Source: Octopus vulgaris (Eukaryota). From it: a stretch of 64,000 bases of DNA. Both the position numbers and the translations under genes were made by a program. Shown piece by piece: positions 2,658-48,496 of the stretch. Position 1 is the stretch's first letter, and every line of letters begins with the position of its first letter. The notes under the pieces are model-generated. The model made no database searches and was not told the DNA's origin. It saw only the letters and a list, made by a program, of their open reading frames with translations. The stretch is from assembly GCA_951406725.2 (NCBI GenBank), contig OX597814.1, forward strand, positions 118,854,001-118,918,000, given 5' to 3'.

Positions 2658-3137
2658 ATAACAATAATTAAGGGTTTAGCAACGTGTTGCTTAACCACAT
2701 ACCGAAAAATTTAGAAATAGCAGGCAAAAGACCGTTATTTCTTTTCCCTACAAAATATGACTTCATTAGTGGCAAATATGAATTTCACTCGTCTATAGAA
2801 ATTCGGATATGCTAACTACCTTGTGTGATGTTCTGGTGTCGCTTGGTCAGAAATGCAAAGGGTAAGTTTTCTGGCATTTTTTTAAGTTATAACTATTGGA
2901 ATATTATGTTGATAAGGAAATGAGTTTTATAACTCTAATCCAGAAACGCGTCCATAATTAACCGAAGACTGTTTGATTTCAATGTTTTCCTTCTTTTTTG
3001 CCTGTGTGAGTTACAGGGAGGATTGTCTGCGGAGTCATATTTGGTAGCGAAAAGAAATAACGGTCTTTTAGCTGCTATTCCTAAATTTTTCGGTATGTGG
3101 TTAAGCAACTCGTTGCTAAACCCTTAATTATTGTTAT
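2658..3137 (+). mobile_element. Inverted-repeat mini-element (PLE-derived) carrying a hammerhead
   Basis: ~105 bp inverted arms 2658-2764 / 3031-3137. Left end abuts (TA)n. Hammerhead motif inside. Confidence 0.8.
2903..2958 (+). ncRNA. Type I hammerhead ribozyme, U3-A8 core variant
   Basis: Stem I ATTATG/CATAAT; core TTGATAA; stem II GGA..GAGTT-ttat-AACTC..TCC; extra A; GAAA; palindromic stem III ACGCGT; GUC cleavage triplet. Confidence 0.8.
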
Positions 3138-3408
3138 AATTATGTATAAAACTTCTTGTATAAGCTTTTACCGAATATGGTTCCTTTCCATACCGAAACT
3201 ACCAAAATTTATTAATTATGAATTAATAATTTTTTACCCTATATCTATAATAAATATATTTGTCTGTCACTTCGAAGTCGTCGTTAAGGAATTGCGTGAA
3301 GAAAACTTAGCCAAACCAAAATCACAGATCCTTGATAGGGAAAAATCCTCTGTCACCTACCAGATTATTCGAATATGTACGTAGGATATGTTGTGTGGCG
3401 TTTCGTTG

Positions 3409-3800
3409 GCGCAAACATAGCTGTATTACTAAGAAGATCGCTTCCTAAACATGTTTTTGGGAAACTTGTGTTCAGTTTCATTGCACGGCATCTTCGACAG
3501 ATATCTTGCACTATAGCCCCGGGCCGACCAATGACTTGTGAGTAGATTTATTAGACGGAAACTGGAAGAATCCTGTCATATGTTGATATGCATTTGCGCG
3601 TGCGCGTCTGTATTCGTTTCTCTGTGTTTGTGATGTGATTTCACCCACTAAACCTGAAAATACTAGTATCAGTTTGTTTACGTCCCGATATCGAATTTGT
3701 TTCGCAAAAGAGTGCGCCGGACTATATACCAGACGGAAAAGAAATTGGCACTGCGGGCGAGTGGTTTCACTAAATCCGTCAAAGCTGTACTACAGTAAAA
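3409..3800 (+). mobile_element. Old, diverged copy of the microsatellite-containing tRNA SINE
   Basis: Degenerate match to 3868-4362 (…ctatagccccgggccgacc…gacggaaactg…). Confidence 0.7.
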
Positions 3801-3867
3801 AATAAAGTAGTGAAAGATTCAAAACATCCATATAGATAAGGATTTTAGAATGTCCTTATTTTGAACA

Positions 3868-4362
3868 TAGGAGGAGCTGTGGCCTTGTGGTAAGTAGCTT
3901 GCTAAGGAACCACATGGTTCCGGGTTCAGGCCCACTGCGACGCATCTTGCGAAAATGTCTTCTATTATAGCCTCGGGCCGACCAAAGACCTGTGAGTGGA
4001 TTTGGTGGACGGAAACTGAAAGATGCCCGTCATATATATATATATATATATATATATATATATATATATATATATATATATATATATATATATGTGTGTG
4101 TGTGTGTGTGTGTGTGTGTGTGTATGTGTGTGTGTGTATGATTGTGTGTCTGTGTTTCCCCCCCCCCCAACATCGCTTGACAACCGATGCTGGTGTGTTT
4201 ACATCCCCGTAACTTAACGGTTCGGCAAAAGAGACTGATAGAATAAGTACTAGGCTTACAAAGAATAAGACCTGCGGTCGATTTGGTCGACTAAAGGCGG
4301 TGCTCCAGCATGGCTACATCCAAAGGACTGAAAGATGTAAAAGAGTAAAAGAGTAAATGAGT
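3868..4362 (+). mobile_element. tRNA-derived SINE with internal (TA)n(TG)n tract (family A)
   Basis: Pol III A-box-like TGGCCTTGTGG and B-box-like GGTTCAGGCCC. Conserved body and (GTAAAAGA)n tail. More than 10 full or partial copies in the window. Confidence 0.9.
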
Positions 4363-5372
4363 AAATCATAAAAAATATGAAAGTCTACTTAAATGACAAT
4401 ACATGGCTAGAGACGTTAATTTGAAGGACGCCATGTCTATATTATAACGTGTCTTACACATCGCTATGCTGTTGGCTACCGACTTAGTCGAGAGGAATTA
4501 GATCCTTCAGCAGAAGGCGACTACAATGATTAATTACATTGATATTGTCGATCACAACCTGTTTTTTGTTTTATTTCCTGACATTCTAATTCTATATTTC
4601 CCCCGCACACACTCACATACACACTCTCTCTCTCTCGCTCTTACTCTATTTATCTCTCAACAGCAGCAACAATCTGTCATCATAGTGAAAATCATTTTTA
4701 AAAGGCTGCCTTGCATCATCTATTTGTTGAAAGACCTCACATACACACACACACGCACACATACAAACAATGAAAATTATGACTTAATGTATTACATTTG
4801 CATACAGTTATTTTTGTAATATCTTTGTTGCGTTGTGCTGACAGACTTGCGCTTAAATTTATCGTGTTGTTCATCAAAAGATGTTAGTTGCTATGGTGTC
4901 AACGCTATCTTTCTATCCATCTATGTGCCTTTCACTCACTCTCACTCTATCTATCTTTCTATCCATCTTCCACTGTATATCTCTCTCTATCTCTCTATCT
5001 GTCTGTCTGTCTGTCTGTCTCTCTCTCTCTCTCTCTCTCTCTCTCTCTCTCTCGCTCTCTCTCTCTCTCAACAACATCTTTTTATTCTCACTGTCTACCA
5101 ACATTTTGTGGCATGGGTTCTTTCTCCTTCTGATTCCATCCCCCTCTTTCTTCCCTTCTTTTAATAGATGTTGTGACGGACAGACAGACGGAGTTCAGTT
5201 TTTCTTTTATACTATCAGATAGTAGTTTCTTTCCAGAATGATAAAGAATTATATACTATTTCCTGGAAATGTTCTCCGTTCGACAAAGATTTTAATATTT
5301 TGCGATGTCTATTTTTATTGCCCTGTACACACGCACGTACACATGCATACATGGGGATATAATTATAGTATG

Positions 5373-46094: not shown

Positions 46095-47245
46095 ATTTTT
46101 TTTTTTCTCAATAACTGTATTCACATGCTTCCTGAAACTTGCGCAAGTGTTCCTCAAATATTCGGGTGACACCTTCTCCCATTCTTCTTTAATGGTATCT
46201 TTAAGAGAGTCGACGTTTCTGTGTGATGTTCTATTGGTAGCATGTTCTAAAATGCCCCAAATAGCATAATCCAGAGGGTTTAGATCTGGACTAGAAGGCA
46301 ACCATAAACATGATTCCAAAAAATTACTAAAGTTGGATTTGCAGAAATCTTGTATTCGTCTAGCTCTGTGGGCTGGAGGACCATCCTGTGTCCATATTTA
46401 ATTACCATCTGAGTCATTTGCTTTAAGGCATGGCAATACCTGGTATCTCAAAGTCTTGTAGTATGTAATAACATTGATCTTTTCATCAGCTTTGTACAAT
46501 TTTATTGGCATGTTCTTTCCATCGGAAGCCACAACACCAAAAGCCATAACTTGAGCAGGATGTTTTGTTTTGAATGTCCCCCTAATCTCAGCTGTTGATT
46601 TTGCGATAAATCTCTCATTTCTGCAGTTCAGAACAGCATCAACAGTGAAGATCTTTTCATCTAAAAAGATTGTTACAATAGAGGACTTTTTCTTGAACCA
46701 TGTTATAATTTTCTTGCACCTTTCCAATCTCTTTTCCTTCATAGCTATTGTCAACAAGTGTTTTGGTGTTCTTGTGTGAGATTTTATCCTCAAATCGTAT
46801 TTTACTGCATTTCTAATGGTCTTGTTATCTACCTCAAGTTCATTTGCCATTTTTCTCATGGATTTGGTTGGATCCTTTAGGAGTTTGGATTTGAGAGCAT
46901 TAATAAAAGCTTTGGTACATTTTTTGTTGATTCTTCTACTTCCAGACTTCCTCCTAATAGTTTTGCTCATAGTCATTCTATTCTATACATTATAAACAGT
47001 CTTTAAGGACACTTCAACTATTCTTGAAATCTCCTTTGGTGTGACGAGTGGATTCAGCAAACCATACATTCTTTGACTTTTGCTTTCCTGATTACTCATA
47101 TGGGCAAAATTTTCTGAAAAGGTAAGGATAATAGTGTTAGCTATGATTATGACATCAATATATGCTAGGTTTCAAAACAACTGACTTAGTGTCTGCTGAG
47201 AAAAAATAACTTAACGTTCATTGTAAATTTTGCTTCCCAACCCTG
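46095..47245 (-). mobile_element. DD37D (maT/Bmmar1-like) transposon, 3' truncated, pseudogenised
   Basis: IFLDEKIF; WTQD-GPPAH…SPDLNPL-DY with exactly 37 residues between the last two Asp. 5' end TA|CAGGGTTGGGAAGC at 47245; ATG at 47099. Confidence 0.9.
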
Positions 47246-47279
47246 TATATATGTATATATATATACACACACACACAGA

Positions 47280-47978
47280 CTCACACACTCACACCATTCT
47301 GACCTCTAAAGACCGATCCCCAAAACAACTGAACCTTGAAAGAGAACCAAAAACTTCTTTTCAATTCCACATTGCTCTTCCTTCCCCCACCGAAACACAC
47401 CTCCTACACTGTCCCTTGAAATAGAAAATAGTCTTTTACTATAAAATGGTGAAACAGGTCAGTTCATCCCAAATTCTTTGTAAACTAATTATACCTCCTT
47501 CTGTGTATATATTTACCACCAAAATATGACCTTTTTGAACTTATAATTTTCTGTGTATATATATAGATGCTTCCAAACAAACATGATTTCTAATGAAATC
47601 CTAATATCTTTCATGAATTTTTAATAATTTCACAAGATTTTTTCTGTAAACTGTTTATAACATTCATATCAAAGAATGTATATATGTATTGTAATTTTTT
47701 GTACCTAATACATTAATGAACTTTTTAATATTTTCCCAAGATTTTTCCTTGTAAACTGCTTTTAACATATCATTATTATCAAAGCATGTATATATGTATT
47801 GTAATATTTTGTGACAATCAGTACCTAACACAATAAAACTTCTACATGTTACTTTTGACAGTGTATTTCTAAAAAAGTGAAACCGGTCAAGTGATTAAAC
47901 ATTTTTTGGAATTGCATTTTCAAACACTCTTTCATATATAATTCCACTCGTGCGGTACCTTACAACTTCAATTTGTTA
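47280..47978 (+). mobile_element. PLE 3' UTR/pseudo-LTR relic with degenerate hammerhead and ~105 bp internal duplication
   Basis: ACTT-TTGACAG…GAAACCGGTC-AAGT at 47851-47892. Terminal CCACTCGTGCGGT resembles CCACGTGCGGT of the full PLE tail. Ends in (TA)n. Confidence 0.55.
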
Positions 47979-48196
47979 TATATATATATATATATATATA
48001 TATATATATATATATATATATATATATATGTATGTATGTATGTATGTATGTATGTATGTATGTGTGTGTGTACATATATATATATATATATATGAATATA
48101 TATACATATATATACACACACTTACATACACACACATATATATATATATATATGTGTGTGTGTGTGTGTACAAATGAAATATTTATATATAAATTA

Positions 48197-48496
48197 TGGA
48201 GGTGGAAATAGTACAGAAGTAAGTGGATGACATTTCAATTCAGGAGAGAATTTAATAAAAATTATTTTGAAAATTATGATGAGTCGCATCTTATAAAATA
48301 TCAGTAAAGTTATAATAAATAGATGGAAAAACATTTTATCTTCTGTCTGCGGGTCAAGAACATATCTGATATTTGATAAGATGAGATTCATCGAAGCTGG
48401 TAATATTTTCTTTATATAACGTTTTAACCCATTTTTATTGAATTCCCTCTTAAATTAAAATATTTGAGATGTACTTCTGTACTATTTCCACCTCCA
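48197..48496 (+). mobile_element. Inverted-repeat mini-element with decayed hammerhead
   Basis: Perfect 25 bp IR TGGAGGTGGAAATAGTACAGAAGTA / TACTTCTGTACTATTTCCACCTCCA, extending imperfectly inward. Motif GATAT-TTGATAA-GATGA gat TCATC-GAAGCTGGTA-ATATT at 48368-48407. Confidence 0.75.

What the first reader, a model, noticed from the sequence alone, without database searches (positions are those of the whole stretch)
2658..48496. Recurring class of tail-out inverted-repeat mini-elements, each carrying a hammerhead ribozyme
Seen: four sequence-unrelated 300-480 bp elements (2658-3137, 34284-34756, 36741-37049, 48197-48496) look like MITEs. Each contains a type I hammerhead motif about 90-180 nt upstream of one arm's outer end and sits in TA-rich or (TA)n DNA. 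Their ends share a pyrimidine-rich CCCTT/CCTCT/CCACC-then-AT signature. The full PLE has the same geometry (hammerhead 15942-15982, tail ending 16123, inverted partner arm). Established: PLE pseudo-LTRs encode minimal hammerheads and often insert with an inverted 5' segment. Inference: these are either extremely truncated double-primed PLE insertions from many subfamilies, or a non-autonomous, retrozyme-like class mobilised by PLE RT that repeat finders would mislabel as DNA MITEs.
Basis: partly seen in the sequence, partly recalled or inferred. Interest (0 to 1): 0.85.

Follow-up and report, generated by a model that had tools for sequence, protein, structure and literature searches.

The report
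Penelope-type ribozyme mini-retroelements in TA repeats
The four small mirror-image repeats each carry a hammerhead-ribozyme motif and differ in length and centre from copy to copy across the genome, so they are not fixed MITE-like elements but likely one-off insertions made by Penelope-like retrotransposon enzymes, three from non-coding 480-570-base ribozyme units and one from a truncated coding element, both known kinds.

Summary
Genome copies refute a fixed MITE-like class: lengths vary up to tenfold and every inversion junction differs. E1-E3 are pieces of non-coding, circularly permuted units of 571, 530 and 480 nt; E3 forms arrays of up to seven near-identical monomers. These are non-LTR retrozymes, that is non-autonomous Penelope-like elements (PLEs). 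E4 is a 5'-truncated coding PLE whose RT/GIY-YIG parent was found. All families end at two fixed AT-rich sites (A, and tail end B), mostly in (TA)n. 61 of 80 two-armed copies have one A and one B end (E3: 26 of 29, none alike), and the two arms share rare alleles. The inverted arm is therefore made anew at each insertion, likely from one template. Inverted pLTR plus one-sided tail is known PLE anatomy; that retrozymes show it was not found in my paper searches. This scan noted similar elements in other genomes. New members of a known kind, useful as minimal substrates for the unsolved PLE insertion mechanism.

The parts
2658..2765 (-). E1 inverted arm (unit positions 464-571), ends at site A in (TA)n
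2765..3260 (+). E1 sense arm (unit 200-571) plus ~122 nt tail to site B; part of a 571-nt non-coding unit
2903..2958 (+). E1 type I hammerhead motif, U3-A8 core, predicted cleavage after 2952
34284..34674 (-). E2 sense arm (unit 131-523), ends at site A; part of a ~530-nt non-coding unit
34676..34855 (+). E2 inverted arm (unit 448-530) plus ~88 nt tail to site B in (TA)n
34459..34519 (-). E2 type I hammerhead motif, C3-G8 core, predicted cleavage after 34462
36615..36806 (-). E3 inverted arm (unit 415-480) plus ~133 nt tail to site B in (TA)n
36807..37049 (+). E3 sense arm (unit 238-480), ends at site A; part of a 480-nt non-coding unit
36863..36920 (+). E3 type I hammerhead motif, C3-G8 core, predicted cleavage after 36913
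48170..48367 (-). E4 inverted arm with partial tail and a decayed second hammerhead copy
48366..48500 (+). E4 sense arm ending at site A; 3' end of a coding PLE family; hammerhead motif 48368-48407 with GAAG in this copy
10054..15066 (-). Full-length PLE of a young family: 5' pLTR 15066-14622, ORF1 14602-13460, RT 12881-11190, GIY-YIG 11236-10826 (frames broken in this copy), 3' end at site A in (TA)n
15067..16126 (+). Inverted 5'-truncated PLE arm with hammerhead motif 15942-15982 and ~50 nt tail to site B in (TA)n

Best explanation
Each element is a single insertion whose length and inversion point differ from copy to copy, likely written into TA-rich DNA by a Penelope-like RT/GIY-YIG enzyme: E1-E3 from non-coding 480-571 nt hammerhead units (non-LTR retrozymes) and E4 from the 3' end of a coding PLE. 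Shown: the unit structure, two fixed 3' ends per family (A, and B at the end of the tail), TA targeting, variable junctions, one A and one B end in most two-armed copies, shared alleles between the arms, tandem arrays of E3 and E2, and a coding parent for E4. Inferred: the RNA is cut by the hammerhead and circularised or left multimeric; the endonuclease opens a (TA)n run; the two target ends each prime reverse transcription on the same RNA, one at A and one at B; the two 5'-truncated cDNAs join head to head by a few bases of microhomology; when only one priming yields a long product a single arm results; running round the template gives arrays. Also inferred: E1-E3 are mobilised in trans, the young PLE family of this window being a candidate.
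For: Variable lengths (E3 two-armed 366-1985, single 286-3631; E1 331-873; E2 378-1129) and all junction pairs distinct. End pairs A+B in 26 of 29 (E3), 12 of 17 (E1), 7 of 14 (E2) and 16 of 20 (E4, one end set by hand); alike ends in 5 of 80, unresolved in 14. Single-arm E3 copies end at A (9) or B (11), so two independent draws would give alike ends about half the time; 0 of 26 resolved E3 copies do (my arithmetic: about 1e-8). Arms of one locus are closer than arms of other loci in 22 of 24, 8 of 9 and 12 of 13 loci and share minority alleles 85 vs 19.5 expected, 28 vs 7.1 and 52 vs 20.1. In 15 of 26 E3 A+B copies neither arm is contained in the other (my reading of the rows), which excludes plain fold-back without trimming. 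(TA)4 lies within 24 nt of 73 of 78 E3 3' ends against 265 of 3854 background windows. Array L211: 7 full monomers, 0-3 substitutions apart, 19-21 from another locus. E4 parent: RT C-terminus and GIY-YIG about 670 nt upstream on the same strand. The coding PLE has the same A/B anatomy and a 753-aa RT/GIY-YIG frame open in 16 of 150 top hits.
Against: No coding parent or sequence link to a PLE was found for E1-E3, so the mobilising enzyme is not identified. Many arm differences are unshared (84, 76, 168), and some E3 loci are no closer inside than between loci. Gene conversion, or one active source locus per cell, would also make arms alike. Twin priming predicts arms piling up at the other priming site; E3 shows no such pile-up. 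A hairpin intermediate trimmed at A fits all the end data as well. TA association is weaker in the older families (E1 33 of 46, E2 18 of 41). Samples are the top 30-40 BLAST hits, biased to copies like the query; only one search was ordered by position. Cleavage, expression and circles were not shown.
Confidence: 0.68

Rival explanations
1. Same elements and same enzyme, but the inverted arm comes from self-priming: one cDNA folds back into a hairpin duplex that ends at B, and the endonuclease then trims one strand at A before joining.
For: Explains the A+B rule, the shared alleles and all 26 E3 arm geometries if either strand can be trimmed. Three E3 copies have both arms starting at the same position (L214, L227, L266), and E4 5' ends cluster at a near-palindrome. 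Self-priming and EN-mediated resolution were proposed before (PMC3846280; bioRxiv 2021.04.23.441226).
Against: Single-arm copies ending at A are as common as those ending at B (9 vs 11 in E3; 8 vs 7 by eye in the position-ordered set), which is simpler if A itself primes. It needs an extra trimming step on either strand.
Confidence: 0.3
2. The arms and arrays look alike because of later gene conversion and unequal crossing-over, or because one source locus was active in the cell; the arms could come from different RNA molecules and arrays need no circular template.
For: Local amplification is the model discussed by Li et al. 2026. A few variants in array L211 are shared between non-adjacent monomers.
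Against: Does not explain why the two ends are almost never the same site. Multimers occur inside one arm of inverted insertions with clean A and B ends (L212, L034).
Confidence: 0.15
3. A self-propagating class of fixed inverted-repeat mini-elements, copied as a whole through RNA.
For: E4-family two-armed copies are often 305-450 nt with junctions near the same two places.
Against: Junctions differ at base level, and the A/B polarity flips among those E4 copies. That sample was selected with a query spanning the junction. E1-E3 junctions are all distinct.
Confidence: 0.03
4. E1-E3 are only truncated ends of coding PLEs that were not sampled.
For: E4 is such a case, and the searches scored only 40 candidates each.
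Against: Copies run through the tail end back into the same non-coding unit, up to seven times. Longest stop-free frames are 65, 106 and 76 aa. The one GIY-YIG found upstream of an E3-like copy belongs to a family with its own different pLTR.
Confidence: 0.04
5. DNA MITEs of a DDE transposon with chance hammerhead-like motifs.
For: Terminal inverted arms in TA context resemble Tc1/mariner MITEs (recalled).
Against: Arms are asymmetric, variable and absent in 45 of 105 copies. Hammerhead cores are kept across copies and vary at the free position 7.
Confidence: 0.01

Closest known systems
Non-LTR retrozymes of animals (Cervera & de la Pena 2020, PMC7229834; Li, Clavereau & Pollet 2026, bioRxiv 10.64898/2026.07.22.740005)
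   Same: Non-coding, low-GC (0.33) unit with one type I hammerhead, in head-to-tail arrays or dispersed; proposed to be non-autonomous PLE derivatives copied from circular RNA.
   Different: Units are 480-571 nt against about 170-400 nt RNAs in the 2020 abstract. Most copies here are 0.6-2 units long with an inverted arm and two fixed ends; the word 'inverted' does not occur in the 2020 main text and only in a reference title of the 2026 preprint. No shared sequence with a PLE pLTR was found for E1-E3, unlike 24 of 57 Xenopus families with Repbase homologs.
Insertion units of EN+ Penelope-like elements (Arkhipova et al. 2013, PMC3846280; Craig et al. 2021, bioRxiv 2021.04.23.441226)
   Same: 5' truncation, partial tandems, an inverted 5'-truncated copy, a tail on one end only, hammerhead in the pLTR, bias for (TA)n. 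E4 and the window PLE fit fully; the CxxxxCxxC linker before GIY-YIG points to the Neptune/Nematis type.
   Different: Tails of E1-E3 are about 88-133 nt against the published 30-40 bp. The window family has two ORFs rather than one.
Non-autonomous Chlamys elements such as MRC1 (Craig et al. 2021)
   Same: [quoted passage not shown]
   Different: Those lack hammerheads and resemble their autonomous partners at the 3' end.
Twin priming of LINE-1 (recalled, no call)
   Same: Two target ends prime on one RNA and the products join inverted by microhomology.
   Different: In L1 the second site is variable and the segments do not overlap; here both sites are fixed and the arms overlap, which would need strand displacement or a multimeric template.

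Membership tests
Non-LTR retrozyme | Type I hammerhead in each unit | tested here: met
   E1-E3; all 7 monomers of L211 carry it
Non-LTR retrozyme | [quoted passage not shown] | tested here: met
   E3 arrays of 3-7 units; E2 L081, L065, L090 span two hammerhead positions
Non-LTR retrozyme | [quoted passage not shown] | tested here: inconclusive
   E1 tracts run past one unit (L006, L029) but none holds two hammerheads among the 30 loci and the 18, largely the same,
Non-LTR retrozyme | Non-coding, low GC | tested here: met
   GC 0.33-0.34; longest stop-free frames 65-106 aa
Non-LTR retrozyme | Self-cleavage and linear/circular monomer RNA in vivo | not testable with these tools
   Only assembled contigs of runs guessed to be RNA were served
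Non-LTR retrozyme | Non-coding tandem unit, E4 | tested here: not met
   E4 continues upstream into a PLE 3' UTR, GIY-YIG and RT; no tandem unit in 30 loci
EN+ Penelope-like element | RT with C-terminal GIY-YIG (window PLE family, E4 parent) | tested here: met
   RVT_1 E 7.7e-8 and GIY-YIG E 0.0015 (below the curated cut-off) in the 753-aa frame; E4 parent 36% identical over 280 aa, E 6e-41
EN+ Penelope-like element | pLTR or partial tandem, inverted 5'-truncated copy, tail on one end | tested here: met
   All five families:
Non-autonomous PLE derivative | Sequence shared with an autonomous PLE terminus (E1-E3) | tested here: inconclusive
   No match to the three coding families examined; other PLE families of the genome were not surveyed
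MITE (DDE) | Uniform length with symmetric fixed terminal inverted repeats | tested here: not met
MITE (DDE) | Fixed target-site duplication | tested here: inconclusive
   Ends lie in TA runs, where a TA duplication cannot be told; no longer duplication as a rule

The most novel reading that the evidence does not exclude
The 480-nt E3 unit is a circular ribozyme RNA on which a PLE reverse transcriptase is primed twice, at two fixed AT-rich sites, by the two ends of one broken TA repeat. This single rule would produce the tail, the inverted arm and the tandem arrays of all PLE-type insertions, and would make retrozymes the minimal cis-acting substrate of PLE transposition.
Probability: 0.35. 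Interest if true: 0.72.

Novelty: new member of a known kind. Interest (0 to 1): 0.42.

Why it matters
How PLEs make their tandem and inverted repeats and one-sided tail is stated as unsolved (Craig et al. 2021). These families give counts that constrain it: the two ends are nearly always different fixed sites, and both arms carry the alleles of one template. They also tie retrozymes to PLE enzymes by insertion anatomy, where published links rest on co-occurrence and pLTR similarity. A 480-nt non-coding unit and a young PLE family with an open RT/GIY-YIG frame in the same genome make a compact test system. Practically, such copies can be mislabelled as MITEs in repeat libraries.

Tried and rejected
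Rfam found no hammerhead; its models evidently miss these variants. RNAfold minimum-energy folds recover stem I for E1, E2, E3 and the PLE but not a full hammerhead fold. Expression: no RNA holder listed; the four runs laid were contigs of guessed-RNA runs, covered parts of E3 and showed no joints, which says nothing for or against. Parent search for E1-E3: upstream flanks share no sequence beyond simple repeats and one unrelated repeat end; RT or GIY-YIG hits in their loci are neighbours; the best candidate, L248, is a different PLE family that E3-like sequence has joined. A GIY-YIG protein search returned only the young window family. Pile-up of arm ends at the other priming site: absent in E3, at most suggestive in E1 and E2. 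Pile-up at the hammerhead cut: 3 of 72 E3 arm ends within 3 nt, about 1 expected, not significant. Target-site duplications: none as a rule. Splice-site-like motifs in the units scored weakly and were not pursued. First-look candidate numbers (570-1756) are not copy numbers.
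Full report
Setting. The window lies in a 2.8-Gb genome of 227 contigs, AT-rich and full of TA microsatellites. The organism was not determined.

Observation. All four pairs of inverted arms are present. A strict hammerhead scan found nothing. A relaxed one, allowing the U3-A8 covariant core and a loose first pair in stem II, found 5 motifs in the window: one in each element and one in TA-rich DNA at 35423 that I take as chance; 40 shuffles gave a mean of 0.58 and a maximum of 3. 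The descriptor was relaxed after looking at the sequence, so this control is lenient. The PLE motif at 15942-15982 was read by eye; it has an extra A. Rfam did not detect any of them. Copies give the better evidence. The core is intact in 25 of 29 E1, 25 of 30 E2, 29 of 30 E3 and 18 of 30 E4 copies, and the free position 7 varies among E2 and E3 copies. Related families change stem I while keeping the pairing. An E3-type pattern matches 438 places against 0 for its reverse. The four elements and the PLE share no sequence at E<=0.05.

The boundaries were drawn too short. In each element one arm runs on beyond the point where its partner stops: E1 to about 3260, E2 to 34855, E3 to 36615 and E4 to 48170. 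Each family has two fixed 3' ends: A, 95-185 nt downstream of the hammerhead cut, and B, a tail further on (about 122, 88, 133, 50 and 50 nt for E1, E2, E3, E4 and the PLE). An inverted 5'-truncated copy and a tail on one end only are the described anatomy of PLE insertions (passages of PMC3846280; bioRxiv 2021.04.23.441226; PMC8969392).

What E1-E3 are. Mapping the 30 best loci of each genome search (40 of 1029-1501 first-look candidates scored) shows that sequence beyond B returns into the same unit. The units are circularly permuted, 571, about 530 and 480 nt long, GC 0.33-0.34, with no stop-free frame above 106 aa. E3 forms arrays: L211 has 7 full monomers plus two partial ones between TA runs, 0-3 substitutions apart and 19-21 from the monomer of another locus; L213 has 3, and L212 has 3 inside one inverted arm. 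This meets the definition of a non-LTR retrozyme in Li et al. 2026 (part 1 of 5 and passages read) and Cervera & de la Pena 2020 (abstract, outline and passages), with larger units than the 170-400 nt given there. E2 has two-hammerhead tracts; E1 showed none. No coding parent was found. RT or GIY-YIG hits in these loci are neighbours. The best candidate, L248, has a GIY-YIG 450 nt upstream, but matches of its family stop at the junction (none of the other rows extends past query position 416) and the 8 members printed go on into their own pLTR and hammerhead. The genome's other PLE families were not surveyed.

What E4 is. Seven loci share sequence upstream of the piece seen in the window. In extended loci it leads to GIY-YIG and the RT C-terminus on the same strand, about 670 nt away (36% over 280 aa, E 6e-41). 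E4 is a stub of an older coding PLE family, about 85% alike among copies.

The window PLE. It spans 10054-16126 with an A end, a B end and a 1060-nt inverted arm. Its family is 98-100% alike; 16 of the 150 top GIY-YIG hits lie in a 753-aa open frame that scores for RVT_1 and weakly for GIY-YIG. Among 8 extended loci, 6 have one A and one B end, one is single-armed and one is unresolved.

Not a fixed class. After removing duplicates and edge-cut loci, 29 E1, 27 E2 and 49 E3 insertions remained; 17, 14 and 29 are two-armed. Lengths run 331-873, 378-1129 and 286-3631 nt. All A+B junction pairs are distinct in 5-nt bins (12 of 12, 7 of 7, 26 of 26). 24 of 29 E3 junctions overlap by at least 1 nt, mostly 1-6, by BLAST ends. 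E4 copies are more uniform, with many 5' ends near one near-palindromic site, but the query spanned that site, the junction bases differ and the A/B polarity flips.

Rules that bear on mechanism. First, two-armed copies have one A and one B end: 26 of 29 E3 (3 unresolved, none alike), 12 of 17 E1, 7 of 14 E2 and 16 of 20 E4 (one end set by hand, two duplicates dropped); in all 61 of 80, with 5 alike and 14 unresolved. Single-arm E3 copies end at A or B about equally (9 and 11). A position-ordered sample agrees: by eye, 7 of 9 two-armed loci are A+B, and single arms split 8 to 7, among 25 distinct loci. Second, the arms of one locus are more alike than arms of different loci (22 of 24, 8 of 9, 12 of 13) and share minority alleles well above expectation (85 vs 19.5, 28 vs 7.1, 52 vs 20.1; unshared 84, 76, 168; L048 left out). 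Third, in 15 of 26 E3 copies neither arm lies within the other (my reading). Fourth, 3' ends sit in TA runs (E3 73 of 78, E1 33 of 46, E2 18 of 41, against 5-9% background), as do 17 of 20 5' ends of single-arm E3 copies.

Mechanism. I favour two primings on one RNA, at A and at B, from the two ends of a cut TA run, with microhomology joining of the cDNAs and more-than-unit copying on a circular or multimeric template. More-than-unit copying from hammerhead-made circles was proposed for PLEs by Cervera & de la Pena 2014 (passages of PMC4209133); L1 twin priming is recalled. A self-primed hairpin trimmed at A by the endonuclease fits the same data, except that it explains A-ended single arms less simply. 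I put the identity of the elements at about 0.9, and twin priming over hairpin at about 60:40. Against twin priming, the expected pile-up of arm ends at the other site is absent in E3. Cleavage, circles, expression and the mobilising enzyme are untested; the RNA runs served were contigs only.

Known or new. PLE anatomy, retrozymes and their proposed link are all in print. Nine paper searches found no paper reporting retrozyme insertions with inverted arms and two fixed ends, or counts of end exclusion and arm alleles. The library lacks most subscription papers, and I did not read any supplements (those of the bioRxiv preprints are closed), which may list related families. Earlier notes of this scan on other genomes describe similar palindromic PLE stubs and non-coding tandem units in TA repeats; my reading was recorded before I saw them, and none is on this genome or sequence. 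Verdict: real feature, new members of known kinds, interest 0.42.

Noticed in passing
window 14602-13460 and 12881-10826 (-); L297, L302, L304: The young PLE family has a 367-380 aa ORF1 followed by a separate 753-aa RT/GIY-YIG frame whose first Met lies well inside the frame; canonical EN+ PLEs have one ORF. It may be joined by splicing or frameshifting.
   Followed up: partly
window 37050-38788 (+): E3's A end is followed by a 12-nt inverted copy of that end and then directly by a LINE-type RT fragment (RVT_1, E 1e-33).
   Followed up: no
window 5226-6662 (+): Another RT open frame of 478 aa (RVT_1, E 3e-25).
   Followed up: no
E1 unit 296, E3 unit 256-316, window ~15770: Splice-donor-like sites upstream of the hammerhead in E1, E3 and the PLE, and acceptor-like sites after the tail; the hammerhead and both ends may lie inside an intron. 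Weak scores.
   Followed up: partly
E4 family, L091-L120: About 24 of 40 arm 5' ends cluster within 16 nt of one near-palindromic site about 100 nt upstream of the hammerhead cut; partly due to the query.
   Followed up: partly
L211:2931, L037, L204: Three E3 tracts, among them the 7-monomer array, start within 3 nt of the predicted hammerhead cut.
   Followed up: partly
L002, L010, L119, L149, L171, L239, L245, L306-L334: Further hammerhead families: a relative about 74% alike to E3 with a changed but paired stem I and a second copy about 500 nt on, E2 relatives, and an older coding PLE family with its own motif.
   Followed up: partly
L052, L005, L171: E1-E3-type copies often sit in the TA run at the end of another repeat or PLE, giving nested clusters.
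   Followed up: no
L214, L227, L266: Three E3 insertions have both arms starting at the same unit position, giving near-perfect palindromes.
   Followed up: no
L268:1410-1705: One E3 copy is flanked by a duplication of about 11 non-repeat bases within TA runs, the only clear target-site duplication seen.
   Followed up: no
window 35423-35494 (+): Hammerhead-like match in TA-rich DNA with a non-standard core; probably chance.
   Followed up: no
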